From assembly GCA_964419615.1 (NCBI GenBank), contig CAYQPU010000002.1, positions 16,096-80,095 of the forward strand: a DNA stretch of 64,000 nucleotides, read 5' to 3'. The notes under the pieces were generated by a model. That model saw nothing but the letters and a program-made list of their open reading frames with translations, ran no database searches and was not told where the DNA came from. Numbering within the stretch: position 1 is the stretch's first letter; each line of letters opens with the position of its first letter. Of the stretch, positions 1 to 15,771 are shown one piece after another. This DNA is from an uncultured Methanosarcinales archaeon. Its GTDB lineage: Archaea > Nanobdellota > Nanobdellia > Woesearchaeales > JAGVZT01. The position numbers were made by a program, and so were the translations under genes.

Positions 1-258
1 ATAATTGTAGATGGAATTCCTCTTTGCTTGATGCAAGGATATGAGCATCTAAACATTGACACACAATTCATCATAGATTCCATACTTAACCCATTTATTG
101 AAGAAAAAATCAAACCCAAGGTTTGTAATTCCTGTTCACTAAGTAAAATTTGTTCAGGAATGAGAAAAGATTATTATGAAATATTTGGAGCTGATGAACT
201 TAAACCTTCTAGTACAAACCCCAAGCAAATTATAAAAATAATAAAATGCAAAGAATAG
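1..258 (+). CDS. HxsC-like radical SAM protein, C-terminal part (5' end outside window)
   Basis: Frame 1 is open from base 1 (IIVDGIPLCLMQGY...). It has the PLC motif and C-terminal CxxCxxxxxCxG...YxxxFGxxELKP shared by the HxsC-like paralogs downstream. Confidence 0.8.
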   Translation: MIVDGIPLCLMQGYEHLNIDTQFIIDSILNPFIEEKIKPKVCNSCSLSKICSGMRKDYYEIFGADELKPSSTNPKQIIKIIKCKE

Positions 259-1163
259 ACCTTCAATTAAACATGACCTGCAATGAGAATTGTTTATTTT
301 GCGCTTCAGCTGATGGCTCAAATTCATTTACAGACACTAAGAAATCAATTGAAATAATTCAGGATGCAATTGAATCTGGTGTGACAGATATCTGTTTTTC
401 TGGTGGAGAACCCACCTTAAGAGACGATCTTCCAATATTAGTTAATTACATCAAAAAACAAAATCCACTGATTAAAGTTACTGTATTAACAAATGCTATG
501 AGGCTTTGTTATGAATGGTACTCAAAAAAACTAGACAAAGTGGATTATTTTAACATCTCGGTTCATGGTTCAAATAGTAAACCAAATGATGCACTAACCC
601 GAACTCCAGGAAGTTTTGATAAAACAATATCTGGAGCAACAGTGATTCAAGAATTAGGTTATACTTTTGGATTTTATTTTGTTATAACTAAAACTAACTA
701 TAAGGAGATTGTCGAGTTTGCAGAGTTTGTAAAAAAGAATTTTCCAAAATGTAAGGCCATTACATTTTCTTTCCCATATTTATCAGGGAACATGCTCAAA
801 CATTTATTCTTATTGCCAAAACTTTCAAAAATAAGTCCTTTGTTGGATGAATCTAAGAAACTATGTGAAGATGCAGGAATTGGATGGGAATTATCCAGTT
901 GCGGTCTTATGCCATTATGTACTTTAAGTGTGCCAATCAGAGCAAAGGTAATAAAGAATAATGAGTCTTATAATGAAGAATCAATTCAAACAACATCACA
1001 AGAAGGAAATAAAGATTATGTGGTAACAAAACAAAACTATCAGAACCAACATTTTGTTAGGAGCTCTGCTTGTGAGAATTGCACCCACAATTCTTTGTGT
1101 CCAGGTGTGTGGAAACAATATTCAGAAATCTATGGTACAGACGAGCTAAAGACTATTCACTAA
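246..1163 (+). CDS. HxsC-like radical SAM protein
   Basis: CNENCLFC (CxxxCxxC), FSGGEPT, SVHG...LTRTPGSF, C-terminal CENCTHNSLCPG. Confidence 0.85.
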   Translation: MQRIDLQLNMTCNENCLFCASADGSNSFTDTKKSIEIIQDAIESGVTDICFSGGEPTLRDDLPILVNYIKKQNPLIKVTVLTNAMRLCYEWYSKKLDKVDYFNISVHGSNSKPNDALTRTPGSFDKTISGATVIQELGYTFGFYFVITKTNYKEIVEFAEFVKKNFPKCKAITFSFPYLSGNMLKHLFLLPKLSKISPLLDESKKLCEDAGIGWELSSCGLMPLCTLSVPIRAKVIKNNESYNEESIQTTSQEGNKDYVVTKQNYQNQHFVRSSACENCTHNSLCPGVWKQYSEIYGTDELKTIH

Positions 1164-1206
1164 ATGTTTTTTTGAAACCTGAAGCTTTAAACTTGGGTTA
1201 ATTCTC

Positions 1207-2844
1207 TTATGCTTTGATAGAATGTTTATTTATCTCTTTATATGCAATCTCCCTGAATTCTACTGGATCACCTGTTCTTGGTGAAAGTTCTTTAAATGAA
1301 TTAAGTATTTCTTTGTGTATTATATTTTCAGTGTTTTCTTTATTAAGTTGATTTATTTTCAGCATTGCAGATTCACCTGTAAAAACATAATCGATGCGAA
1401 ACAATGCCTCTTCCTTGCCAACTACAACCTTAATCAGATTGTCTGAATAATATTTATTAATTGCTTCAATTATTTTTTCTTTTCCGATAAAAAACAGACC
1501 ATAAAAGAACTTGTCTTTTCCTGTTTTTGGCAGATAATAAATCTGATCACCTTCTTCTCTTACTTGTCCCAGCTGCTTTAGCTTTTCAAGTGGCTCAGAA
1601 AAAACATCATTCAACTCTTTTTTGAAGTTTTGCTTAAAATTACTTTTTGAGATTTGGGATATGTTTACAATAATCTCAAAGACAAACCTTTGCATTTCTT
1701 CAGCTTCTGAGAACTCAATCATGCTAAATTTACTTTTTATTGGATCTAAGGTGGGTGGGTTGCTAAAGTAACGAATTTTATTTTTAATATATGAACTAGC
1801 ATGATGACCAAGTCCCAACACAGATCCTTTACAATCAACATTAAAGTGATACACATCTGGTATTTTCTGGGCAGAAGAAAGCAAAAAGAGCATTGAAGCG
1901 GCATTTCCTGCATCAAGTATTCTCTCATCTGGAGATTCATATCCCTTGCTTACAGCATACTTGATTATTTGGGGCATGCACTCTCTTAGTTCATTAAAAT
2001 GCTTTTGAAATTCACCAAGACTTCCATTAAAATACTTTTTCAGATATGAGACTGTAGGCTGGCATTTGTAAAGCCTAACTGTTGTAGGCTGAAGATCAAG
2101 TAATCTCTTAAAACTTTTTGTAAAGGTCTTTTTTGTATCTTTGTATAGTCCAATTATCATATCTGTGTTATACTGTTCAAAGCCAAGCTCTCTGCAATTT
2201 GTAATGCATTTTGTGATCATATCTTCATTTTGATAATCTCTATTTATTGACTTAAGAACATTCAAATTTAGTGACTGTACTCCAAAACTAACCCTATTAA
2301 ATCCAGCTTGTTTTAATATTTTCAATTTATTGAATGTTGTGCTCTGAGGATTTAATTCAAATGTTTTTTCACTGGTGTCTAAAAAACTTGCATATCTAAA
2401 GAATATTTCAAGTATCTCTGATAAGTCAGTATTATCAAAAAGACTTGGAGTCCCGCCTCCAAAATACAGATTATGGAACTTTCTTTTTTTTAGCACTTCT
2501 TTAAAAAGATGTATTTGATTAATCAGACATTCTGCATATTCCTTTACCTGTCTCTTGTTTTTAACAATTCCTTTATGATATATGCAAAAATAGCACTTTG
2601 AATAACAATAAGGCACACCAATATAAACATTAATCTTATCAGTTTTATTATCAGACAGATAACTTAGCCATTTTTTCCTTATATAATCTCCATTAACTAC
2701 CTTTGATTTTTTAAGCAGCTGCCTTTCAAATAAATCTGTTAAAAAGAAATTGTGGTGATAGCCATGTTTTTTTAATTGATCCATGTAAAAAGAATACACA
2801 AACTTCTCAGCTTTGATCTCTTTGTTTATGTCTTTTAAGTCCAT
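1207..2844 (-). CDS. HemN/coproporphyrinogen III oxidase-like (class C) radical SAM protein
   Basis: YIGVPYCYSKCYFC, LYFGGGTPS, RVSFGVQS, DMIIGL; HemN_C-like C-terminal region. Confidence 0.85.
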   Translation of the reverse strand: MDLKDINKEIKAEKFVYSFYMDQLKKHGYHHNFFLTDLFERQLLKKSKVVNGDYIRKKWLSYLSDNKTDKINVYIGVPYCYSKCYFCIYHKGIVKNKRQVKEYAECLINQIHLFKEVLKKRKFHNLYFGGGTPSLFDNTDLSEILEIFFRYASFLDTSEKTFELNPQSTTFNKLKILKQAGFNRVSFGVQSLNLNVLKSINRDYQNEDMITKCITNCRELGFEQYNTDMIIGLYKDTKKTFTKSFKRLLDLQPTTVRLYKCQPTVSYLKKYFNGSLGEFQKHFNELRECMPQIIKYAVSKGYESPDERILDAGNAASMLFLLSSAQKIPDVYHFNVDCKGSVLGLGHHASSYIKNKIRYFSNPPTLDPIKSKFSMIEFSEAEEMQRFVFEIIVNISQISKSNFKQNFKKELNDVFSEPLEKLKQLGQVREEGDQIYYLPKTGKDKFFYGLFFIGKEKIIEAINKYYSDNLIKVVVGKEEALFRIDYVFTGESAMLKINQLNKENTENIIHKEILNSFKELSPRTGDPVEFREIAYKEINKHSIKA

Positions 2845-2960
2845 ATTACTAAAAAGAAGTTTAATGTATAAATAATTTATTATAACGAGAATTTTTCAAT
2901 TAAGAGAAATATGTATTAAAAAAACTTAACAATACATTTATTAACTATTATGCTATACTT

Positions 2961-3875
2961 TTGTCTTGTGAAACTTTAATGACAAATGTTATGGAAATTA
3001 CCGTAGGATATAAGTGCAATTGTAATTGTAGGTTTTGTTCTGTTGGTCATATGAGAAAAGAATTAACTCTTAGTACAGACCAAATTAAAAATAAAATTTT
3101 GGAAGCAAAAGAAAAAAACATACCAAATATTGGTTTTGGTGGTGGTGAACCAACTATTAGAAAAGATCTTTTTGAGGTCGTATCCTTTGCCAAAAAACAG
3201 GGATTTAAAGTTATCAGAATCCAAACTAATGGAGTAATGCTTGGTTATGATACTTTTGTTGATAAATTACTCAAAGCAGGAGCAACATTCTTTAAAATCT
3301 CAATCCATGGTCATAATGCAAAGATACATGACCATCTAACTCAATTACCAGGTAGTTTTAATATGGCAATTAAAGGAATAAAAAACCTTAAAAAAAGAGG
3401 TATGTCAGTTGAAATCAATATTGTAATTAACAAATTAAATTACAAGTACCTGCCTCAAATAACTGACTTTTTTATAAAAATGCAGATTTACAAGTTCTGC
3501 TTTATTTATCCTGTTTATGAAGGTAATCTGATTGATAATTTTGGTAAGATTGGCGTAAAGCTAGGTGAAATTTCTCCTTACTTGACAGATGCTCTGGATA
3601 GGGTTAAAGAGCTTGATCTTGACAAAGGAATTTGTCTAAATGTGCCTCCATGTATCCTAAGCCAAGATCCAGATATGCACTATGGTTATGTTTACAAGTT
3701 TGATACAGTTGTATCAACACCACAAGGAACCAATGACATAGATAATTCAAATAAAGAGAATCTAGTTAAGCCAAAGCAGTGCAGAAGATGTGTTTTTAAT
3801 AAAAACTGTATGGGTATATATAAGAGTTACACTAGGTTTTTTGGGATTGATGAGTTTAAACCAGTTCTTAAGTGA
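2961..3875 (+). CDS. HxsC-like radical SAM protein
   Basis: CNCNCRFC, FGGGEPT, IQTNG, SIHGHNAKIHDHLTQLPGSF, C-terminal CRRCVFNKNCMG. Confidence 0.85.
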   Translation: MSCETLMTNVMEITVGYKCNCNCRFCSVGHMRKELTLSTDQIKNKILEAKEKNIPNIGFGGGEPTIRKDLFEVVSFAKKQGFKVIRIQTNGVMLGYDTFVDKLLKAGATFFKISIHGHNAKIHDHLTQLPGSFNMAIKGIKNLKKRGMSVEINIVINKLNYKYLPQITDFFIKMQIYKFCFIYPVYEGNLIDNFGKIGVKLGEISPYLTDALDRVKELDLDKGICLNVPPCILSQDPDMHYGYVYKFDTVVSTPQGTNDIDNSNKENLVKPKQCRRCVFNKNCMGIYKSYTRFFGIDEFKPVLK

Positions 3876-3917
3876 TTTGCAAACAAATTAAGTTACTTAA
3901 AATGTCCTTGGGTCTAA

Positions 3918-4510
3918 ACTTACAGCTTAGCTGTAAGTCCGGAACGTAGTGACAGGAGCCCCGCCCAATTTCACTTCGCTTTGCTACGTTCCTGGGTTGC
4001 TCTGGCAACCAATCTCACTCTGTTCGTTGCTTTTAGCATAGCTAAAAACTTCAGGGCGAGGACTTTTAATGCAGTCACTCCGCACATTCGTGCTATGTTC
4101 GGCATCCATAAGCTTTCGCTTCTGGAGTCTGAAAACATTCAGCTAAGCTGAATGTCAGGAACGTTAGTGAGATTATTTACAGCTCTGCTGTAAGTCCGGA
4201 ATGTAGTGAAGCGAAATGAGATTATCTTTAGCTAAGCTAAAGATAACGAACGCTAGTGAATTTATCTGCGTGTTGAAGTGAGGAGCGTAAAAGCCCCCAC
4301 CTCTCAGAAATTGTAAATTTCTGATGATGGTTGCTAGAGCAACCTGGGAACGGTAGTGAGCATGCTCAGAAACTTTTGGTTTCTGACATGTAGGAAAGCT
4401 CTGCTTTCCAGATGATCAGGACGAAAAGTCCTGACATTTAGGTGGGGGATGACTTGGAAAGCTAAGCTTTACAAGCCAGGAATGAAGTGAAGCGAAATGA
4501 GATTGGCTCC
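3918..4510. repeat. Array of modular hairpin repeats (REP/BIME-like): variable stem with GC-NNN-GC cap followed by a conserved GGAAYG(N)TAGTGA tail
   Basis: Six forward modules at 3918, 4135, 4177, 4222, 4329 and 4453, plus inverted copies at ~3965-4047. 4198-4223 and 4479-4504 are identical at 25 of 26 nt. No long ORF; visibly GC-richer than the flanks. Confidence 0.85.
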
Positions 4511-4643
4511 GAACAGCAGATTTTCTTTACATAAGTAAAATGAGTAGAAAAATTTAAATACAGAAAGACTCCCATTAATCTCTAAGCTACAAGATGGATT
4601 ACTAATTAATCAGAAATCAGTAATGTAAAAAATTATAAAAAAA

Positions 4644-5150
4644 GTGTGTGTGAATGTGAAAAACAGATTATGGGTTATATTATCAATCTTCAGTTTATTT
4701 ATGCTTTTGAGTGGATGTAATACAAATGAAGGGGTTAATATGAAGGATTCATTAGACAAACAACAGAAAGTTAGAATTTCGGATGTTAGAGACTTAAACG
4801 CATATTATGAACCACCAGACGGATTTAGGTTCATTTTTGGCTTAGTTGTTGAAGATCAGGAAGTAGCAAGAAATGGTTTGTTGAATGTGACCATATCATC
4901 AAAAAAAGGTAAGTTGCTGTTAGAGAAATCAATTAACGTAAAATCCAAGGAATTCGGGAAATACACTGTTAATTCAAATAGTGTGGATAAGGAAATTTTA
5001 AGTTATTCTGGTAAGATTCCAATTAGTGAATTCAATGAATCTGAAGTTCCTGAGGGATTGTTTTGTTTAGGTTTTAAGGACTCAGAAGGAAATCAATTTA
5101 ATCAAATCTGTTCAAATGTGAAAGGGCTTCCACCTTTCCATAATGATTGA
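4644..5150 (+). CDS. Putative lipoprotein, unknown function
   Basis: Hydrophobic N-terminus ending in a lipobox-like LLSGC. Confidence 0.6.
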   Translation: MCVNVKNRLWVILSIFSLFMLLSGCNTNEGVNMKDSLDKQQKVRISDVRDLNAYYEPPDGFRFIFGLVVEDQEVARNGLLNVTISSKKGKLLLEKSINVKSKEFGKYTVNSNSVDKEILSYSGKIPISEFNESEVPEGLFCLGFKDSEGNQFNQICSNVKGLPPFHND

Positions 5151-5193
5151 CTTATAAGCAAAGCTTAAATACACATTTCTTAACTCATTTTAC

Positions 5194-6306
5194 ATGGAAT
5201 TGATCATTGATATTTTGTCTATAATCTGTGTAATCATTTTAGGGATTATCACAAGCTATGAAGATATTAAAGAGAATAAAATAAGAAACAAATGGGTGGG
5301 ACCTGCAATTCTAATTGCTTTGGTTTTATTCATCGCAAGAATTGCGAGTGTGAAAATCCTTGGACAAGGCCTCGTCTCTGGATATATCTGGGAATATCTG
5401 TCCAATTTTGTATTGTCTTTTGGAGTAGGTTTTGTTATATGGGAATTAAAACTTTGGAATGCGGCTGATTCAAAGTTAATGCTTGCCTATGCTGCATTGA
5501 TCCCTTTCACATTTTATTACTGGGGTTATACAGACAAGTTCCCCAGTTTCACCCTTTTTACCAATACATTTATACCTTACTTGTTGATTGGTACAACCTA
5601 CCTAATTATAAAAACAGATAAGAAAACAATATGGGATGTAATTAAACAAAAAGTAATTAGAACACTGCCAAGTTCACTTTCTATGATTATAGGTTTCTTA
5701 TGGATTACTAATAAGTTTACTAGCTTGCTTAATTTTAGTGGGACAGAGAGATTTAATATTGTTATTGTCATAGCTATGATGATTATATCTGAAAGATATT
5801 TAAAAGTGAAAGTTACCTATCTGGGAATCGGGCTCAGTTTACTAGCAGTAATTCTTGACTTTAACATGTTTGACCTAAAGTTTTTTCTTAAGATGTTAAA
5901 GACCATTTTCTTTTATATTATGTTAAGGTTTTTTATTGTAAGCTTAGGATTCAAATTCTTTACAAAAAGAGTCAGAGTTGCAGATCTTGAGCCAGGGATG
6001 GTTCTTGCAGACAAAATAATAGAGAGTGAAGGCAAGTATAGAGTACAGGAAAGGATTCAGATCAGTATTTCACAAGCTGTTTTAGAAAAAGTTAAAGCAG
6101 ATGATGTAATTAAGCCAAATCCTGAGGGACTAAGCAAAGAAGAAATTGAAAAAATCAAAAATTTGCGCAAATCAAAAAAACTAGACATTTATTCAGTGAA
6201 TATTGCAAAGATTTATCCTTTTGCTCCGTTTTTGTTTTTAGGAGTAATTCTAACCCTTATTTGTAAAGGAAGTGTACTCACAAGAATCTATATGTTGTTA
6301 ACATAA
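5194..6306 (+). CDS. A24 family prepilin/prearchaellin-type peptidase
   Basis: Multi-TM protein; SYEDIKENKIRN and WNAADSKL aspartate motifs; C-terminal L.PGM..A and PFAPFLFLG typical of FlaK-like A24 peptidases. Confidence 0.8.
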   Translation: MELIIDILSIICVIILGIITSYEDIKENKIRNKWVGPAILIALVLFIARIASVKILGQGLVSGYIWEYLSNFVLSFGVGFVIWELKLWNAADSKLMLAYAALIPFTFYYWGYTDKFPSFTLFTNTFIPYLLIGTTYLIIKTDKKTIWDVIKQKVIRTLPSSLSMIIGFLWITNKFTSLLNFSGTERFNIVIVIAMMIISERYLKVKVTYLGIGLSLLAVILDFNMFDLKFFLKMLKTIFFYIMLRFFIVSLGFKFFTKRVRVADLEPGMVLADKIIESEGKYRVQERIQISISQAVLEKVKADDVIKPNPEGLSKEEIEKIKNLRKSKKLDIYSVNIAKIYPFAPFLFLGVILTLICKGSVLTRIYMLLT

Positions 6307-6333
6307 TTAAACATAAGATATAAAAAGTCAACA

Positions 6334-6347
6334 GAAAAGTTTAAATA
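6334..6347 (+). promoter_or_regulatory. Archaeal BRE + TATA promoter upstream of the hxsD-hxsD2-hxsB operon
   Basis: GAAAAG followed by TTTAAATA; SD GGTGA at 6371-6375 before ATG 6380. Confidence 0.55.
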
Positions 6348-6361
6348 ACTACCAACATATC

Positions 6362-6817
6362 TTGAAAATTGGTGAGAGGATGGATGTAATAAAAACTATT
6401 GACAATATCTCAATATATAAAGATAATGTAGTACTTAGTGTGAATGAAAAAATATATCCTCTGGATATAATCTATTCTGCTTCCTATGTGTTTATGGATC
6501 GGGCATATGTTGTGATGGGTGGAGGTGGAGATGATTCAGAGGTTTTGGTGACTCTGAGGCCCAAAAAGAAAGAAAATCTAGAAGAACTTGGTAGGGATTT
6601 TAATAATGAGCTTATTAATTATGCTGTTTACAAAGAACAAAGTGTCAAGAGTAGAGGGATTAAAGAAACAATTGTTCGAAAAGCACTTGAATCTAATGTC
6701 CCAAGTTCAGGCGAATGTTCTGATGATGAATTGGGTGAGGACTCTGATGAGAGCTATAAAGATGATCCTTTAGGCATAGCTGTTCCATGGGAAGAAAAGG
6801 AAGGGAAGAATGAATAA
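6362..6817 (+). CDS. hxsD: His-Xaa-Ser system protein HxsD (probable start ATG 6380)
   Basis: IYPLDIIYSASYVFMDRAYV...LGRDFNNELINY pattern of HxsD; next to hxsB; acidic C-terminal tail. Confidence 0.75.
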   Translation: MKIGERMDVIKTIDNISIYKDNVVLSVNEKIYPLDIIYSASYVFMDRAYVVMGGGGDDSEVLVTLRPKKKENLEELGRDFNNELINYAVYKEQSVKSRGIKETIVRKALESNVPSSGECSDDELGEDSDESYKDDPLGIAVPWEEKEGKNE

Positions 6818-7055
6818 TATCACAGTAAAAAAAGGGGTTGTTCGAATATTGGTTGATACCCGGTACTATGGTTTTGGAGCAGTACTCACAGCTGCAAAGG
6901 CATACCTGGATTCCTGTTGGGTCTTTGTTGATGGGGATCTTGAAGATCAGGTTTTGGTTACATTAAAACCTAAAGACAAGAAAATTGATGTAGATTTGTT
7001 AGGATTCGAGTTTTTTAATTTTATGCTGGGGACAATTCAAAATGCCTACACCTAG
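6810..7055 (+). CDS. Second, shorter HxsD-like protein
   Basis: YGFGAVLTAAKAYLDSCWVFV...VLVTLKPK...GFEFFNFM aligns by eye with the preceding HxsD. Confidence 0.65.
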   Translation: MNNITVKKGVVRILVDTRYYGFGAVLTAAKAYLDSCWVFVDGDLEDQVLVTLKPKDKKIDVDLLGFEFFNFMLGTIQNAYT

Positions 7056-8470: not shown

Positions 8471-8485
8471 GCAAAAATTTATATA
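8471..8485 (+). promoter_or_regulatory. BRE + TATA promoter for the precursor gene
   Basis: GCAAAAA then TTTATATA (8478-8485); SD AGGTGA at 8515-8520. Confidence 0.5.
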
Positions 8486-8516: not shown

Positions 8517-8954
8517 GTGAGTATGGGAAATAAAATTTTGCCAAGAGTTAAAAAATCCCTCCGAGGTTATCTTATGGGGGAGGATGGTAAGATTAGTAAG
8601 CAATCCATGCTTGTTATTGGAACTTTTTTAGGCGCTGCAGCGCTCTCCACAATCACTATAAGTAAAAGCGTTAGTGCCCAACATGTGTCTCATGGTTCAC
8701 ATTGTTCTCATAGCAGCCACAGTGCCCATAGCAGCCATAGTTCACATAGCAACCACGGAAGTCACAGCAGTCACGGTTCTCACGGAAGTCACGGTTCTCA
8801 TGGATCCCATGGATCCCATGGTAGTCATGGTTCCCATAGTAATCATGGTAGTCATGGAAGCCATGGTTCCCATGGTTCCCATGGTTCCCATAGTAATCAT
8901 GGTAGTCATGGATCTCATTGGAATGGATGCTGGCCGGGAGCTAACGTCATATAG
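8517..8954 (+). CDS. hxsA: His-Xaa-Ser repeat precursor peptide HxsA (probable start ATG 8523)
   Basis: 27 consecutive His-x-x triplets (22 HxS, 16 HGS) after a basic/hydrophobic leader. Confidence 0.92.
   Translation: MSMGNKILPRVKKSLRGYLMGEDGKISKQSMLVIGTFLGAAALSTITISKSVSAQHVSHGSHCSHSSHSAHSSHSSHSNHGSHSSHGSHGSHGSHGSHGSHGSHGSHSNHGSHGSHGSHGSHGSHSNHGSHGSHWNGCWPGANVI
8682..8924 (+). repeat. 9-bp-period coding tandem repeat (His-x-Ser)n, 27 units
   Basis: cay-nnn-nnn units with varied synonymous codons. Confidence 0.95.
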
Positions 8955-8982: not shown

Positions 8983-10920
8983 ATGCAAATCAGATTATTT
9001 AACATTAAAAAGAAGAAGTTTGAATATATTAATGAAAGAGATATCTCTAATCATCTAAGTGAGTTAGATAAGCTAATTCATATTGTAAGCAACCATAGAA
9101 ATAGATATTATTACTTACCAAAAAAAACCGCAATAATTGAAATCCCAAAAAGTATCTCTTGTTACCAGTCTCATCCTTCAGACACAGAATCAGATCTGTT
9201 CAAAATTGTTGATAAGGATATAAAAAGAGACCGAGAAAAGCCTCTTTTTAAAGATCTAATTATAAATATGCACTCAAAATGTAATTTGGATTGTAAGTAT
9301 TGTTTTGGATTTTCAAAAGATAAAGAGTTAGAGACACCCACTGAAACAATAGTGGCTCTCATTAGCTATCTCTATAAAAAAAGATATTCTCTGAATAGAA
9401 TCTATTTCTTGGGATCTGGTGAAACACTACTTGAGTTTAATAGATTTAAAGATATAGTTTCGATACTTAAACAGTATTATCCAAATGTTCCAATAATAGT
9501 TGTTACAAATGGTATTTTATCAAAGCAAAAAATAGACTGGTTGATTAAAAGAAAGATAAATATAAGGTTGAGTTGTGATGGTCCAGCTTTTATAAATGAT
9601 GTTTCTAGACCCATAAAAAATAGCACAAAAAAACCATCAGAGACAGTTCATGCTAACCTCCAATACATAGTAAAGAATACATCTTTATTTACAATAGCAC
9701 CAACTATTACAAAATTATCTCAGGGATTTGAATCAAACATACTATACTTTTTTTGGAAATTAGGTGTGAAACTTGATAAGATCAGCTGGAACCATGCATC
9801 ATGCAGAGGAAAAGCAAAGGAACAGCCTACTATCTTAATGAATTATGATGAAATTAACAGATCACAAATTGTGTGGGATGAGTTGGAAGATATACTTGGA
9901 GATTACACTAAAACAAATATGTTTGTTAATATGATGGGAACACCTTTTCTTTGTGGAACCATTAATTTTGGCTGGATCACAATTGATGAAAGAGGATGTA
10001 TTAGTAGCTGTTCAAAGCATGTAAATTCTCTGAATAATTCCTTAATTGAAAAACTTTTAATTGGAAGATATGATTTTGAATCCAAAAAAATCCTTATTTC
10101 AAGTAACTCAATTAAGAATACAAATAATTGGATTATATCTGTAATGGAAAAGACAGATTGTTTTAATTGTGAATATCTTTCACTTTGTCGGGGCCCATGC
10201 TTCTATGATTCACTTGTGATTGAAGACAATATTGGTGAAGATAACAAAACAAATATCCAGTGTATTAAAAGGAAAAATTATGTTAATAATATCCTACAAT
10301 ATTTGATTGAGACTCATATGTGGAAGAAATATCCACACCACTTAGTAGAGAATGGAATAGAATACTTTAACTATTCTCATAATAAGTTTGAGATTAGAGA
10401 TCCCAATGACCTCCCAAATAAGTTTCAAAGTGCGATCAAGATTAAGATAGACGTTGAAAATAATTTAGGCAAACAAATAGATCACTTAATTAATTTAAGT
10501 AATTCTGAAAATTATTGTTTTAGATTTTTTTTACTTGAATTTAAAATAAACTTAACCAATCCGGAACAAATAGCTAAGAAAATAAACCACTTTCTTGGAA
10601 AATTACAGCAAAATTTTGTGTGTTTCCTTGTATTAAAGCCTCTCCCTTATTGTGTTAGGAGATATATTAAAAAAACTTTTTCAATACCAAACACTTGTCT
10701 TGAATGCAACAAAATGTTTACCGTAAAAGACAACAAAGTAATATTTTGTGATGGATCAGATGGGAAGAAATTTGATAAATATGTAGACAGGACGCAGATT
10801 TTCAATGACTTTAAGAAAATTAATAAGAACACTAATAATCTCTGCCTAAATTGCATTTACAAGGATAGAAAATTATGTTTTGGTTATGTTGAAAATATTA
10901 ATTGTATTGCGAACAATTAA
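8983..10920 (+). CDS. Radical SAM/SPASM protein with long C-terminal Cys-containing extension
   Basis: CNLDCKYC, FLGSGETL, LSCDG, SPASM LCG...SSC...CFNCEYLSLCRGPC; extra ~200 aa with CLEC and CLNCIYKDRKLC. Confidence 0.8.
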   Translation: MQIRLFNIKKKKFEYINERDISNHLSELDKLIHIVSNHRNRYYYLPKKTAIIEIPKSISCYQSHPSDTESDLFKIVDKDIKRDREKPLFKDLIINMHSKCNLDCKYCFGFSKDKELETPTETIVALISYLYKKRYSLNRIYFLGSGETLLEFNRFKDIVSILKQYYPNVPIIVVTNGILSKQKIDWLIKRKINIRLSCDGPAFINDVSRPIKNSTKKPSETVHANLQYIVKNTSLFTIAPTITKLSQGFESNILYFFWKLGVKLDKISWNHASCRGKAKEQPTILMNYDEINRSQIVWDELEDILGDYTKTNMFVNMMGTPFLCGTINFGWITIDERGCISSCSKHVNSLNNSLIEKLLIGRYDFESKKILISSNSIKNTNNWIISVMEKTDCFNCEYLSLCRGPCFYDSLVIEDNIGEDNKTNIQCIKRKNYVNNILQYLIETHMWKKYPHHLVENGIEYFNYSHNKFEIRDPNDLPNKFQSAIKIKIDVENNLGKQIDHLINLSNSENYCFRFFLLEFKINLTNPEQIAKKINHFLGKLQQNFVCFLVLKPLPYCVRRYIKKTFSIPNTCLECNKMFTVKDNKVIFCDGSDGKKFDKYVDRTQIFNDFKKINKNTNNLCLNCIYKDRKLCFGYVENINCIANN

Positions 10921-11335
10921 CATAAGTTACATATAAACCTAAAACATCATTCTCCTTAGTGTCTATCATATAAGAACCCTTGTCTGTAGTAATTATTGCT
11001 ATTTCCTTCTCGTGTATGATTTTATTCAATTGGAGTGCAATGGGTTCTGAAGTATCATTAATTCCTAAAGTTTTATTGTTAATTGATATAATTGTTTCAC
11101 CAACCGAGATAGAAGTATTACCAAATTTACTATAAGTGCTAATGTTGACTATTGTTAACCCACAAACAGGATTATTTGAATATGCTTCTTTACTTAAGTT
11201 TACCCATAACAAAGTTTCATTCATAGAATCATTAACACTAGAAGAATTGGAAAATACTTGGAAAAATAAGTAAAATACAGCAACCACTATTATAAACCAC
11301 ACAATTTTCTTTTTTGAATATTTATCTTTTATCAA
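10898..11335 (-). CDS. Membrane-anchored protein with a PDZ-like ectodomain
   Basis: Single N-terminal TM; GLTIVNI...VGETIISINN pattern. Confidence 0.5.
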   Translation of the reverse strand: MIKDKYSKKKIVWFIIVVAVFYLFFQVFSNSSSVNDSMNETLLWVNLSKEAYSNNPVCGLTIVNISTYSKFGNTSISVGETIISINNKTLGINDTSEPIALQLNKIIHEKEIAIITTDKGSYMIDTKENDVLGLYVTYVNCSQYN

Positions 11336-11532: not shown

Positions 11533-11547
11533 GAAAAGATTTAAATA
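11533..11547 (+). promoter_or_regulatory. BRE + TATA promoter upstream of the second hxsC-like operon
   Basis: GAAAAG-A-TTTAAATA ending 23 nt before ATG 11570, a spacing compatible with a leaderless transcript. Confidence 0.55.
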
Positions 11548-11569
11548 ACATTATTGAGACTTTCTAAAC

Positions 11570-12499
11570 ATGGGCAAAAGAGTAGACATTAAGACTGGTT
11601 TTAAGTGCAACAATAATTGTAAGTTCTGTGTACAGGCTTGGAAAAAGCCAGAAGGCAATCGACCCAAAGAAGATATTTCTAAAGACCTGTATGATGCAAA
11701 AAAAGCAGGATGCGTGGGAGTTGTTTTTACTGGTGGAGAGGTTTCAATAAGGGCAGATTTTTTTGAGCTTTTAGAGTGTGCACATGACATTGGATTTGCT
11801 GAAATCCAAGTACAAACAAATGCAAGAAGGTTTTATTACATGGATTTTTGCATAAAAGCAGTGAGGGCAGGCATGAATGATTTTGGGCCAGCAATTCATG
11901 GACATACAGCAGAGTTGCATGATTCATTGACACAAAGCCAAGGAAGCTTTAATCAAGCCTGCCAAGCTATAAAAAATATAAAATCTCTTGGAGTTAATGT
12001 GATTACAAACACTGTTGTTGTTAGACCCAATTATAAGTTTATTCCAGAGATAGCAAAATTACTGGTCAGCCTTGATGTGAATCAATACCAGTTTGCATTT
12101 ATGCATGCTGTAGGCAACGCTATGGATAATTATAATAAAATGATGCCAAGAGTAAGTCTGGCTGCTCCCTACATTAAAAAAGGACTTCAGATAGGAATTG
12201 ATGCAGGCAAAAAAGTAATGGCTGAAGCAATGCCTTATTGTGTTATGAAAGGATATGAGAGATACACTTCTGAACTTTACATACCTGAAACTGAAATTAG
12301 GGATACAACCAGTTATGATCCTGATTTTGGAAATACCAGGAGAACACAAGGAAAGGTGAAATTTTCAAAATGCAAGCAGTGCAAGTACGACCTTATCTGT
12401 GAAGGTCCATGGAAAGAGTATCCGGAAAGAATGGGCTCAAAGGAGTTTGTACCTGTGAAAGGTGACAAAATAATAAGTGCTAAGGAGATCCTATGCTAG
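11570..12499 (+). CDS. HxsC-like radical SAM protein
   Basis: CNNNCKFC, FTGGE, VQTNAR, AIHGHTAELHDSLTQ, MPYC, CKQCKYDLICEG. Confidence 0.88.
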   Translation: MGKRVDIKTGFKCNNNCKFCVQAWKKPEGNRPKEDISKDLYDAKKAGCVGVVFTGGEVSIRADFFELLECAHDIGFAEIQVQTNARRFYYMDFCIKAVRAGMNDFGPAIHGHTAELHDSLTQSQGSFNQACQAIKNIKSLGVNVITNTVVVRPNYKFIPEIAKLLVSLDVNQYQFAFMHAVGNAMDNYNKMMPRVSLAAPYIKKGLQIGIDAGKKVMAEAMPYCVMKGYERYTSELYIPETEIRDTTSYDPDFGNTRRTQGKVKFSKCKQCKYDLICEGPWKEYPERMGSKEFVPVKGDKIISAKEILC

Positions 12500-13455
12500 A
12501 ACAATATAAACCTGTTAACTATGGTGAAGAGTATGTGGAATTTTGTGGGAGTTCACAATACCCAATGTTTGTTGCAACTGCACTAGGTGTTAAGCCTTGT
12601 TTTGATGATTGGGTTCCTTGCAATAAATATGGAGAATTTGTAGGAATCTGTAAGGAATACGGGTTATTTGTTGAGCCGGATGTGGTTTTTGTAAAAACGA
12701 GTTTAGATAAAAAACAGGTTGTAGGAGGAGACACAATTACAACAACATTTACAGAGGTTGTGCCGTTTAAGGAAAATGCCAAGAATGGGCAGGTGCATGT
12801 TTTTGTATCAAAAGCCAAAGACCAAGCAATTAGAACTAGGAGGTGTGGGTGGTATCCGGGAATTATTAGTGGCAGATCAGTAAATAAACCATTTGTTGAC
12901 CACATGAGATTTGGAAAGAACTTGGGTTTCCCAGAATGCTGTGTGGATTTCTTTAGAAAGTACAATAATTGGGCAAAATACTCACACCCATACGAAAGCT
13001 ATAATAGCACACCAAACAAAAGTAGTCCGTCCTCATATTATTGTAATAATTTCACAATGGATTTTATCTATTTTTATATTCACCATATCCCATGTAATTT
13101 TAAATGCGATGCAACTATCGCTTCTGCAAAAGTTGTAGAGAATAAAATAAAAGATGTTGAACCAAAATTTGTTGAGAAAACTAATAAGATTCTAAAAAGT
13201 CCGTTGTTAGTCTTTGGTGAACGTAATTTCATATTGTTTGAGGAAGGTAATTACTCAAAAGGAGAATTAAAATACAAAAAAACAAAATATATCTCAAATT
13301 ACGCCCGAAAAGAGGATAGAGTTGGATTTATTAATGATGTTCAAAAAGGCAATAGTTTGTTTTTCAAAGATAAGAAATTATGTGTAGAGAAAAATGAAAA
13401 CTTAATCTTTGAGATAGAGAAAGAGCCTGAATGGTTTATAATTGATTTTCAATAA
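12493..13455 (+). CDS. Conserved hypothetical protein with LG(F/Y)PxCC and HxPCxxxC motifs (DUF483-like)
   Basis: GKNLGFPECC and HHIPCNFKCDAT; paralog at 36895-37797. Confidence 0.6.
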   Translation: MLEQYKPVNYGEEYVEFCGSSQYPMFVATALGVKPCFDDWVPCNKYGEFVGICKEYGLFVEPDVVFVKTSLDKKQVVGGDTITTTFTEVVPFKENAKNGQVHVFVSKAKDQAIRTRRCGWYPGIISGRSVNKPFVDHMRFGKNLGFPECCVDFFRKYNNWAKYSHPYESYNSTPNKSSPSSYYCNNFTMDFIYFYIHHIPCNFKCDATIASAKVVENKIKDVEPKFVEKTNKILKSPLLVFGERNFILFEEGNYSKGELKYKKTKYISNYARKEDRVGFINDVQKGNSLFFKDKKLCVEKNENLIFEIEKEPEWFIIDFQ

Positions 13456-13933
13456 AATGATTAAAGAACTTGAAGAATATCTTAGATTCCCAGTCAAAAG
13501 GGTTATTGTTAAATTAGACTATGAGACCCCTCATGATGAGGCTTTCTCATACGCAATTTGTCAGAGATTCTTTAATAAACCAGATCAGTTAAAAACTGCG
13601 ATGCAACTTGGAAATAAGGCTCTCAACCAATTGCTAAAAAAAGAAGATTATATCCAGATTAGTCATCTATTTGCACTTGTTGGGAATATGTACTATCTCC
13701 AGGAGAAATATAAAATCAGTGCGGGATACTTTTTAAAGAGCATAAATTATAATAAAAAAGATCTTACCAGTTGGATTGAGCTGATATTCTCAATAAGAGC
13801 CATGGGAGATTTTGATACATTTGATAAGTGTATATTTAATCTTAAAAAGCTATATACGCTTGGACAAAGAGAAGAAGAGATTACACAACAAACGCTGCTA
13901 AAACTAATTGAGCAGGCATGTAAAAATGGGTAA
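13442..13933 (+). CDS. TPR-containing protein
   Basis: LVGNMYYLQEKYKISAGYFLKSINYNKKDLTSWIEL TPR-like helices. Confidence 0.65.
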   Translation: MIFNKMIKELEEYLRFPVKRVIVKLDYETPHDEAFSYAICQRFFNKPDQLKTAMQLGNKALNQLLKKEDYIQISHLFALVGNMYYLQEKYKISAGYFLKSINYNKKDLTSWIELIFSIRAMGDFDTFDKCIFNLKKLYTLGQREEEITQQTLLKLIEQACKNG

Positions 13934-14831
13934 TAAATCAGAAGTAATCGGGTTGATCCATAAATGCAATTGTTTATGTATTATGTGTCCAAATTCTTTA
14001 AGTTATCGTAAACTTAAAGATATGACTAAACTTGAATTTTTTGAGTGGGTAGACAGACTTACACCAGATGTCAACCACATTACCTTTACAGGAGGTGAAC
14101 CAACTCTCCGACGCGATTTGTTTGAGCTTATTAATTATGTTAATCAGAAGAGGCCAGACATACATATGAGGCTGCTTACAAATGCCAGGATGTTTTATTA
14201 CAAATCTTATTTGGATGATTTTCTTGCTCAAGGCCTAAAAAACCTCGAATTTGGCATCCCTATTTGTGGACCAAATGCAAAAACCCATGATAAGGTTACA
14301 AAGGCTAAAGGTAGCTTTGAGCAAACCATGGGGGGAATGAAGAACCTCATGGCAAATGGATTTTTAGTTGAATTAAGAATTGTGATTAATAAGATCAATC
14401 TTGATGAGTTGAATAATATGTCTGAGCTGATCAAAAAAGAACTAAATGATGTACTCAGGATCACATTTTATTACATGCAAATCACAGGAAATGCTTTAAA
14501 AAATAAGGACGAAGTTTTTATTTCATATAAAAAAATTCGTGATAAAATTGATATTGCGCTTAACAGTCTGAATGGGTTTACAATTGGACTTTGTCATTTC
14601 CCACTTTGCACTGTTAATCCAAAATGGTGGCCAATTGTTTGGAGGAGCGTTGTTGATAGGAAGCTGTTTTTCCCTGAAAAATGTAATTTGTGTTTGTATA
14701 AAAAGTATTGCCTGGGAGTTATGAAAAGTTATAGGGCCAATTTTGGGGTAGGAGAATTTCAGCCAATTAAACAAAAGTACAATATTGTTGAGAGCAATGA
14801 TCTAGCACGGCCAATAAAAGAGGTGCTATAA
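13908..14831 (+). CDS. hxsC: His-Xaa-Ser system radical SAM maturase HxsC (best match among the paralogs)
   Basis: CNCLCIMCPN, FTGGEPTL, LLTNARMF, GIPICG, VELRIVI, FPLC, CNLCLYKKYCLG. Confidence 0.8.
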   Translation: MSRHVKMGNKSEVIGLIHKCNCLCIMCPNSLSYRKLKDMTKLEFFEWVDRLTPDVNHITFTGGEPTLRRDLFELINYVNQKRPDIHMRLLTNARMFYYKSYLDDFLAQGLKNLEFGIPICGPNAKTHDKVTKAKGSFEQTMGGMKNLMANGFLVELRIVINKINLDELNNMSELIKKELNDVLRITFYYMQITGNALKNKDEVFISYKKIRDKIDIALNSLNGFTIGLCHFPLCTVNPKWWPIVWRSVVDRKLFFPEKCNLCLYKKYCLGVMKSYRANFGVGEFQPIKQKYNIVESNDLARPIKEVL

Positions 14832-15771
14832 TGCCAGAACGTATTACAATTATCCAGGATTACAGATGCAATAACAACTGTATGTTTTGCTGTAATGGAG
14901 ACAAAAGAAATGATTTCAAAGGAATGAACACAATAGAAGTAATGGAAACAATGAGGGTTGGAAGAAAAAGAGGGGCAACTTTTATTGACTTTATTGGTGG
15001 TGAGCCAACAATGAGAAGCAATATTATCCCACTTGTGAAATATGCTAAAAAATTGGGCTTTATAACTATAGCAACAACATCTAATGGGAGGATGTATTCT
15101 TATCCAGAATTTACAAAAAAAATGATTGATGCGGCCCAAATGCACAAATTCATGATTATTTAACAAGAGTTCCGGGTTCATTTGACCAGGCATTAAAAGG
15201 CATAGAAAATGCAAAAAAATTTGGTATAGAGCGAATTGAAATCAACACAACAATTGTTAAACCAAATTACAAGCATCTGCCGAAAATGGCCCAGATGTAC
15301 AATGAGCTAGGAGTTGCTGAACCTAATTATATCTTTCCAGATCCTACGCCTATTGGATATGCATATAAATACTTTGATGAAATAGTCCCAACATACACAG
15401 AATCAATGCTTTATGTTAGAAAAGCTATTCAGGTAGGGGTTGATGGTTTAAATGACCAGATACTAACACAATATGTTCCCGCATGTTTTATGAAAGGCTA
15501 TGAAAAACATATAGGTGAGTTCTTTTTTGAACCTGAAACAGAACATCATGCTTCAGATTTTATTAATGAGAATGTTATTGAGGGAAGAAAACAAGCAGGA
15601 AAATTAAAAGGTCCTCAATGCCGCAAATGTAAATTTGATCCAGTCTGTGAGGGAGTATGGAAACAATATGGTAAGAAGATAGGCCTTCATGAACTAGTGC
15701 CTGTTCCAGGAAAACCATTTAGAACAAAGAAAGAACTCTTGATTGAGTTCTACGGTGAAGAGACTTTGTGA
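14831..15771 (+). pseudogene. HxsC-like radical SAM split by a short deletion/frameshift near 15134
   Basis: ORF 14831-15163 (CNNNCMFC...TTSNGRM...KMIDA) continues in another frame as GPNAQIHDYLTRVPGSF... through 15771; the segment that ends in SxH in paralogs is missing. Confidence 0.8.

What the first reader, a model, noticed from the sequence alone, without database searches (positions are those of the whole stretch)
1..15771. Greatly expanded His-Xaa-Ser radical SAM peptide-modification locus in a DPANN-like archaeon
Seen: nine radical SAM genes within 16 kb (six HxsC-like, HxsB, a HemN-like, a long SPASM protein) around one His-x-Ser repeat gene, with two HxsD-like genes, a prepilin-type peptidase, a TPR protein, a Cys/His-motif protein and three separate BRE/TATA promoters. 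The locus continues past the left edge. Established: the TIGRFAM His-Xaa-Ser system (HxsA/B/C/D, TIGR03976-03979) was defined mainly from bacteria with one HxsB and one HxsC, and other radical SAM/SPASM maturases crosslink three-residue aromatic-x-x motifs (triceptides). Inference: this reduced archaeon runs a multi-enzyme line that heavily modifies a His-rich peptide, possibly a metal-binding or surface/host-interaction product rather than a small antibiotic.
Basis: partly seen in the sequence, partly recalled or inferred. Interest (0 to 1): 0.85.

Follow-up and report, generated by a model that had tools for sequence, protein, structure and literature searches.

The report
Expanded archaeal His-Xaa-Ser maturation island
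A tiny marine Woesearchaeota archaeon packs 15 radical-SAM enzymes, a private membrane protease and two exported histidine-repeat proteins into one 32-kb island, an enlarged, uncharacterised relative of the four-gene bacterial HXS system that blocks phage DNA entry.

Summary
Window 1-15771 carries eight radical SAM genes plus the tail of a ninth, around an HxsA4-type gene with 27 His-x-x triplets. HxsB, HxsD and HxsA4 pass NCBIfam cut-offs.

- **Extent:** the locus is the right half of a ~32-kb island (contig C2:1-31,900). The island holds a second HxsA4 and HxsB and 15 of the genome's 34 radical SAM matches.
- **HxsC-like genes:** one is a true HxsC orthologue lacking the bacterial N-domain. 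The others are old paralogues (40% identity or less) in subfamilies kept in synteny in other families of the order.
- **Core cassette:** 12 of 20 fetched related loci have a divergent A24 prepilin-type peptidase, then HxsD, HxsB and a precursor. The precursor carries an almost invariant 28-residue N-terminal tag. Some genomes have no HxsC-like gene.
- **Breaks:** the p5 "frameshift" is a 31-nt assembly deletion, and public contigs give an intact gene. The in-frame TAA in p0 is confirmed.
- **Not confirmed:** the TPR protein.
- **Function:** untested. An envelope antiviral role is inferred from E. coli HXS (Nat Commun 2026).
- **Earlier notes:** this scan noted similar expanded Hxs-plus-peptidase loci on other DNA (54 notes, at least 43 genomes). 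I found no paper describing them.

New variant of a known kind.

The parts
1..258 (+). C-terminal end of p0, an HxsC-like radical SAM paralogue. The gene starts at C2:15451, 645 nt left of the window, and carries one in-frame TAA at C2:15580-15582.
   Evidence: Contigs of two runs cover the TAA with no differences.
246..1163 (+). p1, an HxsC-like radical SAM paralogue (305 aa). It has an N-terminal CxxxCxxC and a C-terminal CxxCx5C.
   Evidence: NF038332 E = 2.5e-35, below cut-off. Cys motifs. Tree.
1207..2844 (-). HemN-like radical SAM protein (545 aa).
   Evidence: HemN, HemZ and STM4012 models at E = 1e-41 to 1e-44, all below cut-off. HemN-like genes recur in related clusters L021 and L031.
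2961..3875 (+). p2, an HxsC-like radical SAM paralogue (304 aa).
   Evidence: NF038332 E = 1.7e-42. Motifs.
3918..4510 (.). Pile-up of short hairpin (MITE-like) repeat units between p2 and the core cassette. It is not a part of the system.
   Evidence: Dozens of 80-97% identical copies in the sister species G060. Contigs skip 130, 194 and 176 nt inside it. No credible Rfam family (one sub-threshold Histone3 stem-loop match).
4549..4560 (+). BRE/TATA-like box upstream of the 168-aa gene and the peptidase gene.
   Evidence: Pattern enriched 21 against 6.7 expected.
4644..5150 (+). 168-aa protein with a lipoprotein-like signal (…LLSGC…). No family match.
   Evidence: Not found in related loci.
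5194..6306 (+). Dedicated, divergent A24 (prepilin-type) aspartyl membrane peptidase (370 aa).
   Evidence: Arc_PepC 40.8 bits and Peptidase_A24 22.8 bits. Both Asp motifs are kept, and it is a second copy beside a housekeeping A24 on C15. It lies within 10 kb of HxsB (usually next to HxsD) in 12 of 20 fetched loci, plus L035, L037 and L038.
6336..6347 (+). BRE/TATA-like box upstream of HxsD.
6362..6817 (+). HxsD (151 aa).
   Evidence: TIGR03976 51.9 bits against a cut-off of 50.
6810..7055 (+). Second, short HxsD-like protein (81 aa).
   Evidence: NF038315 E = 1e-4. Orthologues sit between HxsD and HxsB in L014, L015, L035 and L037.
7042..8466 (+). HxsB radical SAM/SPASM maturase (474 aa).
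   Evidence: TIGR03978 421.3 bits against a cut-off of 370. It is 30-38% identical to hxsB genes annotated on bacterial plasmids.
8474..8485 (+). BRE/TATA-like box directly upstream of the precursor gene.
8517..8954 (+). HxsA4-type precursor (likely start ATG at 8523). In order it has a conserved 28-residue tag, a hydrophobic segment, an AxA site, 27 H-x-x triplets and the tail GCWPGANVI.
   Evidence: NF038313 88.3 bits against a cut-off of 55. Sequence. Triplet count. Tag profile.
8983..10920 (+). 645-aa radical SAM/SPASM protein with an unmatched C-terminal Cys-rich part of about 200 aa.
   Evidence: HxsB, PapB and YhhB models at E = 1e-15 and SPASM domain 29 bits. PF04055. No orthologue in the related loci fetched.
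10898..11335 (-). 145-aa membrane-anchored protein. No family match.
11536..11547 (+). BRE/TATA-like box 22 nt upstream of the p3 start.
11570..12499 (+). p3, an HxsC-like paralogue of a subfamily conserved across families of the order.
   Evidence: NF038332 E = 4.8e-45. Orthologues at 52-70% identity in L014, L031 and L033. Clade support 98-99.
12493..13455 (+). DUF483-family protein (320 aa, Cys-rich). Role unknown.
   Evidence: PF04467 E = 6.8e-4. Atlas feature score 0.93 to DUF483 clusters. 64% DNA match in G201 a few kb from HxS repeats.
13442..13933 (+).
   Evidence: No Pfam or NCBIfam family at E <= 0.01 apart from one chance-level hit.
13908..14831 (+). HxsC orthologue (307 aa) that lacks the ~118-aa N-terminal domain of bacterial HxsC.
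   Evidence: TIGR03977 208.5 bits, below the 267.9 cut-off. 29% identity over 262 aa to an annotated Methylobacter HxsC. Groups with it at SH-aLRT 96.
14831..15771 (+). p5, an HxsC-like paralogue. In the window it is broken by a 31-nt deletion at 15132. It is intact (323 aa) in public contigs.
   Evidence: Orthologues in L021 and L031.

Best explanation
**What it is.** This is the right half of a ~32-kb island that holds two HxsA4-type His-Xaa-Ser (Hxs) protein-maturation systems in a marine Woesearchaeota (DPANN) archaeon.

**Shown by sequence and comparison:**
- The conserved core is a dedicated divergent A24 aspartyl membrane peptidase, HxsD, HxsB and an exported precursor.
- The precursor's N-terminus carries a nearly invariant 28-residue tag (…P-K-I-K-K-K-I-x-x-F-L-x-G-E-E-G-K-I-S-K-x-S-L-L-K-x-G). 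A ~16-residue hydrophobic segment follows, usually an AxA site, a variable linker, and a C-terminal HxS array.
- Around this core sits an accessory set. It comprises one HxsC orthologue, six old HxsC-like paralogues of distinct subfamilies, HemN-like, B12-dependent and extra SPASM radical SAM enzymes, a SAM methyltransferase and a SufS cysteine desulfurase.

**Inferred mechanism:**
- In the cytoplasm, HxsB and the HxsC-type enzymes, with HxsD as partner, install covalent changes on the HxS array. Meanwhile the N-terminal tag is held by the maturases.
- The different paralogues act on different repeat variants or add successive changes.
- SufS supplies sulfur for the many Fe-S clusters.
- The protein then enters the membrane, and the private A24 peptidase removes the tag at one of two invariant glycines. 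The more likely site is the K-x-G just before the hydrophobic segment.
- This leaves a His-rich modified array anchored on, or released at, the cell surface.

**Inferred role, by homology only.** The product would be an envelope-level barrier to viral DNA entry, as shown for the four-gene E. coli HXS system.
For: **Family assignments:**
- HxsB 421 and 403 bits (cut-off 370), HxsD 51.9 (cut-off 50), HxsA4 88 and 55 bits (cut-off 55).

**Island extent and radical SAM content:**
- 15 of the genome's 34 over-cut-off PF04055 matches lie in C2:1-31,900.

**HxsC-like paralogues:**
- All of them share an N-terminal CxxxCxxC and a C-terminal CxxCx5C.
- The tree puts the 13908-14831 protein with a bacterial HxsC (SH-aLRT 96).
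- The tree resolves p3, p5 and HxsC subfamilies shared with genomes of other families. The gene order p3, HxsC, p5 is kept in L021 and L031.

**Peptidase:**
- A24 is present within 10 kb of HxsB (usually next to HxsD) in 12 of 20 fetched loci and in L035, L037 and L038.
- It co-occurs with the tagged precursor: 12 loci have both, 7 have neither.
- It is a second, divergent A24 copy (about 22-27% identity to the housekeeping one) with both catalytic Asp kept.

**Tag conservation:**
- The tag profile finds 758 protein clusters (114 at E <= 1e-10).
- E(-2), G(0) and K(+4) are invariant, and G(+11) is kept in 96%.

**Persistence and regulation:**
- The island is kept in the sister species at 68-71% DNA identity, like the housekeeping flank at 67-74%.
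- The precursor gene has its own promoter-like box.

**Function of the canonical system:**
- HxsB, HxsC and HxsD mature HxsA (a +8 Da change plus N-terminal cleavage by an unidentified protease).
- The exported HxsA blocks phage DNA entry (PMC13128918).
Against: - No experiment exists on any HxsA4-type system. Role, chemistry and cleavage site are all inferred.
- Four genomes with the core cassette have no HxsC-like gene. The paralogues are therefore accessory, and some may serve other substrates.
- The tag matches no pilin or Flp model in Pfam or NCBIfam. The K-x-G site differs from the usual K/R-G class III site. About half the family has an AxA site that ordinary signal peptidase could cut. 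The job of the peptidase is therefore uncertain.
- The archaeal precursor has no peptidoglycan-binding domain and far more repeats than E. coli HxsA, so its action may differ.
- The island evolves no faster than its flanks, which is not the usual pattern for defence islands.
- PADLOC (2023) holds no model that matches.
Confidence: 0.6

Rival explanations
1. Metal handling. The exported poly-His array (19% His) binds Ni, Zn, Cu or Co at the cell surface. It would serve as a metal scavenger, buffer or store, and the radical SAM changes tune or rigidify the binding sites.
For: There are 27 regularly spaced His residues, and the second precursor has a Cys-rich tail. The organism comes from marine or brine-type metagenomes. 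The island is vertically kept at the same rate as housekeeping genes.
Against: No metal transporter, chaperone or regulator was found among the island's ORFs. Most family members have only 3-8 repeats. The only tested relative works in antiviral defence and binds DNA (PMC13128918).
Confidence: 0.15
2. Host or prey interaction. The surface array, together with the island's secreted M23 peptidase and a peptidoglycan-binding-domain protein, attaches the small archaeon to a bacterial partner or attacks it.
For: The left half of the island encodes a PG_binding_1 membrane protein and a 528-aa M23 peptidase with a signal peptide, in an archaeon. Two PMT_2 glycosyltransferases flank the locus, and one sits inside the L037 cluster.
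Against: These genes were not detected in the related Hxs loci fetched (only window proteins were used as BLAST queries). E. coli HxsA itself carries a peptidoglycan-binding domain for anchoring, so the domain may simply have travelled with a system acquired from bacteria.
Confidence: 0.12
3. Secreted antimicrobial or signalling RiPP. The tag is an ordinary RiPP leader. After modification the small His-rich C-terminal peptide is released by the peptidase or signal peptidase and acts on other cells.
For: Many family members are only 70-130 aa, with a short core ending in a conserved aromatic residue (…H-x-S-W/Y). The radical SAM/SPASM enzymes involved are related to RiPP maturases such as PapB and SCIFF maturases.
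Against: No ABC exporter, immunity gene or C39 peptidase lies in the island. A hydrophobic segment lies between the tag and the core, unlike usual RiPP leaders. The tested bacterial relative acts as a cell-bound protein effector.
Confidence: 0.08
4. Not one pathway. The core cassette is a system of its own. The surrounding HxsC-like, HemN-like and SPASM genes are a separate radical SAM cluster that merely lies beside it.
For: Core cassettes exist without any HxsC-like gene. In G376 the HxsC-like trio is on another contig. In sister species G060, p2 and p3 are 1.2 kb apart and the core cassette is on another contig.
Against: HxsC-like clusters lie within 10 kb of HxsB and the precursor in L020, L021, L029, L031, L033, L037 and L038. 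No other candidate substrate gene was seen. One of the paralogues is the orthologue of HxsC, which is required in the canonical system.
Confidence: 0.1

Closest known systems
Canonical HXS antiphage system, HxsD-HxsB-HxsC-HxsA (TIGR03976-03979; Li et al., Nat Commun 2026, PMC13128918)
   Same: HxsB and HxsD pass the family cut-offs. An HxsC orthologue is present. The substrate is an exported protein with tandem His-x-Ser repeats that needs N-terminal processing.
   Different: - Classical HxsA (TIGR03979) is not matched. The precursor is HxsA4-type, has a long conserved tag, has no peptidoglycan-binding domain, and has 27 and 17 triplets instead of 5.
- HxsC lacks the ~118-aa N-domain and scores below cut-off.
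- Gene order differs: A24, D, D', B, A, with C 5 kb further on.
- A dedicated A24 peptidase is part of the core.
- Six further HxsC-like paralogues are added, along with HemN-like, B12 and SPASM enzymes.
- The host is an archaeon without peptidoglycan.
- The paper reports 99.7% of systems in Pseudomonadota and 99.8% with four genes.
NCBIfam 'rare' Hxs variants: HxsA4 (NF038313), HxsA3 (NF038309), HxsC4 (NF038332), HxsD_rel (NF038315)
   Same: The precursor passes the HxsA4 cut-off, and the model covers the tag, the hydrophobic segment and the first repeats. The paralogues' best NCBIfam hit is HxsC4.
   Different: The paralogues score 42-154 bits against an HxsC4 cut-off of 500, so none is an HxsC4 member. 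No paper in the searched library describes these variants, their peptidase or their expansion.
Class III (type IV pilin-like) signal peptides and their A24 peptidases (PibD, FlaK, EppA, TadV/CpaA); established knowledge
   Same: An A24 aspartyl membrane peptidase with both Asp motifs is genetically tied to exported substrates. The substrates have a basic N-terminal segment, an invariant Gly and then a hydrophobic helix. Residue +5 after the first invariant Gly is Q or E in most members.
   Different: - No pilin or Flp model matches.
- About ten polar residues separate the first Gly from the hydrophobic segment.
- The second site is K-x-G rather than K/R-G.
- An AxA site often follows the hydrophobic segment.
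- No pilus assembly ATPase or platform gene lies in the island.
Radical SAM/SPASM RiPP maturases acting on short repeated motifs (triceptide cyclophane formers XyeB, GrrM, FxsB, YhhB; PapB ranthipeptide maturases)
   Same: SPASM enzymes act on three-residue repeats in a ribosomal substrate. Three extra PapB- or YhhB-like SPASM proteins lie in the island.
   Different: All these models score far below their cut-offs (for example GrrM 66 bits against 310, and PapB 148-205 against 340). The motif is His-x-Ser rather than aromatic-x-x. The known product mass shift in E. coli is +8 Da, not -2 Da.

Membership tests
His-Xaa-Ser (HXS) system | HxsB radical SAM/SPASM maturase (TIGR03978, cut-off 370 bits) | tested here: met
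   421.3 bits (window 7042-8466) and 403.1 bits (C2:6870-8312).
His-Xaa-Ser (HXS) system | HxsC radical SAM maturase (TIGR03977, cut-off 267.9 bits) | tested here: inconclusive
   208.5 bits, below cut-off. Even so, it groups with an annotated bacterial HxsC at SH-aLRT 96. It is 29% identical over the whole core and lacks the ~118-aa N-domain.
His-Xaa-Ser (HXS) system | HxsD small protein (TIGR03976, cut-off 50 bits) | tested here: met
   51.9 bits for 6362-6817.
His-Xaa-Ser (HXS) system | Exported HxsA with tandem His-x-Ser repeats | tested here: met
   22 strict HxS within 27 H-x-x triplets, an N-terminal hydrophobic segment and an AxA site. The match is to HxsA4 (88.3 bits against 55). The scan reported no hit to classical HxsA.
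His-Xaa-Ser (HXS) system | [quoted passage not shown] | tested here: not met
   The order is A24, D, D', B, A, then SPASM…p3…C. No PG-binding domain is in the precursor. A separate PG_binding_1 protein lies 18 kb to the left.
His-Xaa-Ser (HXS) system | Blocks viral DNA entry; +8 Da change on an HxS motif | not testable with these tools
   Known only for E. coli (PMC13128918).
HxsC4 (NF038332) | Score of at least 500 bits | tested here: not met
   42-154 bits for p0, p1, p2, p3, p5 and HxsC.
Type IV pilin-like / class III signal peptide substrates | A24 peptidase with two catalytic Asp | tested here: met
   The Asp in …S-Y-E-D-I-K… and the Asp in W-N-A-A-D align with those of the housekeeping enzyme (…S-D-L-K… and G-G-G-D).
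Type IV pilin-like / class III signal peptide substrates | Recognisable prepilin N-terminus (K/R-G then a hydrophobic helix; pilin, Flp or archaellin N-terminal models) | tested here: not met
   No Pfam or NCBIfam pilin model matches. The invariant Gly residues are in G-E-E-G-K and K-x-G contexts. This is a resemblance only.
Type IV pilin-like / class III signal peptide substrates | Assembly ATPase and membrane platform genes nearby | tested here: not met
   None found among the ORFs of C2:1-36,600 that were scanned.
Triceptide-type cyclophane maturases | XyeB, GrrM, FxsB or YhhB model over cut-off | tested here: not met
   All are far below cut-off.

The most novel reading that the evidence does not exclude
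The HxsA4-type cassette is a widespread envelope immune system of ultra-small archaea (and of some bacteria). A radical-SAM-tailored poly-His array is displayed on the cell surface after tag removal by a private prepilin-type peptidase, and it stops viral genome entry. The variable sets of HxsC-like paralogues diversify the array's chemistry. The A24 enzyme also identifies the class of protease missing from the E. coli HXS model.
Probability: 0.25. Interest if true: 0.85.

Novelty: new variant of a known kind. Interest (0 to 1): 0.6.

Why it matters
- **Distribution.** The only functional study of HXS reports a four-gene system almost confined to Pseudomonadota. Here HxsB is over cut-off in about 10% of 401 sampled genomes of a DPANN phylum.
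- **A different core.** This form has its own prepilin-type peptidase and a tagged precursor, and HxsC is optional.
- **Scale.** The expansions reach 15 radical SAM genes in 32 kb of a 1.48-Mb genome.
- **Testable leads.** It offers a candidate protease class for the unexplained N-terminal cleavage of HxsA. It also offers a natural series of HxsC-like enzymes for working out the unknown radical chemistry.
- **If the inferred role holds,** it would be an archaeal defence that acts at viral genome entry.

Tried and rejected
- **Word-index protein search with the precursor's first 56 residues:** no hit. The full HMMER profile search was needed.
- **Pfam on nine tag sequences at E <= 10:** only chance hits, with no Flp or pilin family.
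- **PADLOC on ten locus proteins:** only weak viperin cross-hits to the radical SAM cores.
- **Cluster look-up of nine family members:** all are unnamed metagenomic singletons.
- **AlphaFold2 of the DUF483 protein without an alignment:** mean pLDDT 31, unusable. No fold search was run.
- **Rfam on 1-16000:** two sub-threshold chance matches.
- **Sequencing runs:** no RNA holder is listed, so nothing can be said on expression.
- **Contigs at low depth (2-5x):** parts without cover are not interpreted. Two long 'skips' (7778 to 13503 and 7892 to 9874 of L040) have sides of only 21-28 letters. I take them as cross-matches between paralogues or other organisms.
- **Collagen reading of (HGS)n (Pfam Collagen 28.7 bits):** rejected. 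Gly periodicity is not kept in the first ten triplets or in relatives, where HSS is as common.
- **TPR call for 13442-13933:** not supported.
- **Literature:** no paper joins a prepilin peptidase with a radical SAM precursor peptide, or treats DPANN Hxs systems.

Full report
**What is in the window**

ORF listing and NCBIfam/Pfam scans give the following on window 1-15771:
- the tail of an HxsC-like gene, p0 (1-258)
- p1 (246-1163)
- a HemN-like radical SAM gene on the minus strand (1207-2844)
- p2 (2961-3875)
- a 0.6-kb non-coding hairpin block
- a 168-aa lipoprotein-like gene (4644-5150)
- an A24 peptidase with the archaeal C-terminal domain (5194-6306)
- HxsD (6362-6817; 51.9 bits, cut-off 50)
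- a short HxsD-like gene (6810-7055)
- HxsB (7042-8466; 421 bits, cut-off 370)
- the precursor (8517-8954; HxsA4, 88 bits, cut-off 55)
- a 645-aa SPASM protein (8983-10920)
- a 145-aa membrane protein on the minus strand (10898-11335)
- p3 (11570-12499)
- a DUF483-family protein (12493-13455)
- a 163-aa protein without a family (13442-13933)
- HxsC (13908-14831; 208.5 bits, below the 267.9 cut-off)
- p5 (14831-15771)

The TPR label is not supported.

The consensus RRNNTTTAWATA is enriched in the window, 21 matches against 6.7 expected. It sits upstream of the 168-aa gene, HxsD, the precursor and p3. Several promoters, including one for the precursor, are therefore plausible.

**The precursor**

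The precursor has 27 consecutive H-x-x triplets: 16 HGS, 4 HSS, 3 HSN, and single HVS, HCS, HSA and HWN. The tail GCWPGANVI follows. The DNA repeat is imperfect. The 9-nt period matches at 74-77%, and a 54-nt higher-order unit is present in 2.2 copies.

**Organism and true extent**

The window is C2:16096-80095 of a 1.48-Mb genome that is 99.4% complete. The same-genus genome is recorded as Candidatus Woesearchaeota from a Suakin Deep MAG.

The 16 kb left of the window belongs to the same island. It holds:
- a second HxsA4 precursor (17 triplets)
- a second HxsB (403 bits, 43% identical to the first)
- two PapB-like SPASM proteins
- a second HemN-like gene
- a B12-binding radical SAM gene
- a SAM methyltransferase
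- a 476-aa HxsC-like protein
- SufS
- p0
- an M23 peptidase, a PG_binding_1 membrane protein and a short M50 peptidase

Fifteen of the genome's 34 over-cut-off PF04055 matches lie in C2:1-31,900. The genome has only two tag-bearing precursors and two A24 peptidases. The other A24 is a conventional 283-aa enzyme on C15.

**The HxsC-like genes**

All of them start directly at CxxxCxxC and end with CxxCx5C. They are at most 40% identical to each other.

In a maximum-likelihood tree, the 13908-14831 protein groups with an annotated Methylobacter HxsC (SH-aLRT 96). Two relatives' proteins join that group. p3 and p5 each form well-supported subfamilies with proteins from genomes of other families.

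The order p3, HxsC, p5 recurs in L021 and L031, where a HemN-like gene follows. Bacterial HxsC has about 118 extra N-terminal residues. Two more HxsC-like genes lie elsewhere in the genome. The expansion is therefore old and structured, not a recent burst.

**Broken genes**

p0 has one in-frame TAA. Contigs of two runs from one study cover the site with no differences.

The p5 break is different. Contigs from two studies carry 30 extra letters plus one repeated base at window 15132. The resulting 972-nt frame is open and aligns without gaps to the p5 orthologues. The break is therefore an assembly error or a minority allele. The sister species' match over this stretch is also 40 nt longer.

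**Distribution and core**

HxsB is over cut-off in 41 of 401 sampled genomes of the phylum, nearly all in the same order. In the 20 loci fetched around it, 12 have the A24 peptidase, usually directly before HxsD, HxsB and the precursor. L035, L037 and L038 do as well.

A profile of the precursor's N-terminus finds the tag in 12 loci that have the peptidase, counting a diverged form in L019. It finds no clear match (one marginal hit, L022, E = 0.0025) in the 7 loci that lack it. Related genomes are not independent, so this is a pattern and not a statistic.

Four genomes with the core have no HxsC-like gene anywhere, and one keeps an HxsC-like trio on another contig. The core is therefore peptidase, HxsD, HxsB and precursor. 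The HxsC-type sets are accessory.

**The tag**

Against 1.84 billion representative proteins, the 53-column profile finds 758 clusters at E <= 0.001 and 114 at E <= 1e-10. Most are 70-130 aa.

In 136 anchored members, these positions are 93-100% conserved: P(-15), K(-12), K(-11), E(-2), G(0), I(+2), K(+4) and G(+11). F(-6), L(-5), K(+1) and S(+3) are kept in 83-89%. A ~16-residue hydrophobic segment follows, and Ala stands at +30 in 54%.

Of the best 150 hits, 71 have three or more HxS/T, and the maximum is 13. The 22 and 15 strict HxS of this genome are therefore the longest arrays seen here. Many relatives end in H-x-S-W or H-x-S-Y.

No pilin or Flp model matches the tag. The likeness to prepilins is limited to three things: a basic start, an invariant Gly with Q or E five residues later, and a second Gly right before the hydrophobic segment.

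**What is known**

Li et al. (PMC13128918) showed the following in E. coli:
- HxsB, HxsC and HxsD are all needed for N-terminal cleavage of HxsA by an unidentified protease.
- They are also needed for a +8 Da change on an S-H-R-S-S motif.
- HxsC binds HxsD.
- Periplasmic HxsA binds DNA, and the system blocks phage DNA entry.
- 99.7% of systems are in Pseudomonadota, and 99.8% have four genes.

NCBIfam already catalogues HxsA4 and HxsC4 as rare variants. I found no paper on them, on a linked prepilin peptidase, or on DPANN Hxs loci.

Earlier notes of this scan describe similar expanded Hxs-plus-peptidase clusters in other genomes, including Omnitrophota bacteria. That agrees with L037, which is labelled as a bacterial MAG. 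The variant is therefore not strictly archaeal.

**Reading**

Most likely the precursor is modified in the cytoplasm by HxsB and the HxsC-type enzymes with HxsD. It is then exported through its hydrophobic segment and trimmed by the private A24 peptidase. The result is a modified His-rich array at the cell surface.

The antiviral role is carried over from E. coli and is unproven. The island is retained in the sister species at the same DNA identity as its housekeeping flank, 68-71% against 67-74%. That shows long-term selection, but it is not the turnover typical of defence islands.

Metal binding, partner interaction and a released peptide remain open.

**Verdict**

This is a new variant of a known kind, and the scan has already met it repeatedly on other DNA.

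Noticed in passing
window 3918-4510: The hairpin block between p2 and the core cassette is a pile-up of short repeat units. These units have dozens of 80-97% identical copies scattered over the sister species G060 but almost none in this genome. Public contigs skip 130, 194 and 176 nt inside it, so it is structurally polymorphic.
   Followed up: partly
L001 5285-6103, 9493-11079 (minus strand), 11281-11829: An archaeal island encodes a membrane protein with a PG_binding_1 domain, a secreted 528-aa M23 peptidase and a short M50 peptidase. E. coli HxsA carries a peptidoglycan-binding domain, so these genes may have come along with a system acquired from bacteria. Alternatively they may point to a bacterial partner.
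   Followed up: no
G060:C11:58-4135 against window 2229-12683: In the sister species, p2 and p3 are about 1.2 kb apart and the peptidase-HxsD-HxsB block is on another, short contig. In this genome the core cassette plus the repeat block (about 8 kb) lies between them. This could be a rearrangement, an insertion or an assembly difference.
   Followed up: no
proteins P0018 and P0031 (tag-family members from the profile search): Two members of 249-258 aa carry the tag and a few His motifs. They then have a ~130-residue insert bounded by C-C-F…H-N that looks like a Hint/intein-type domain, before a G-G-P-C-x-W end.
   Followed up: no
L001 3612-3962 and 4023-5201: The B12-binding radical SAM gene appears as two ORFs (116 and 392 aa) separated by 60 nt. 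It may be a broken gene or an assembly error like the one in p5.
   Followed up: no
window 15750-17261 and 17349-18848 (minus strand); L037 13891-15423: Two PMT_2-type glycosyltransferases flank the island, and a 26%-identical one sits inside the L037 Hxs cluster. O-glycosylation of the Ser-rich array is conceivable but rests on one shared locus.
   Followed up: no
L036, L037: Record titles disagree with placement. The contig of G372 (same order as this genome in the survey) is titled 'uncultured Methanosarcinales archaeon'. A closely similar Hxs cluster is titled 'Candidatus Aminicenantes bacterium'.
   Followed up: no
C2:15580-15582 (L040 581-583): The single in-frame TAA in otherwise intact p0 is present in contigs of two runs. 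It could be real decay of one paralogue, or less likely a read-through site.
   Followed up: partly
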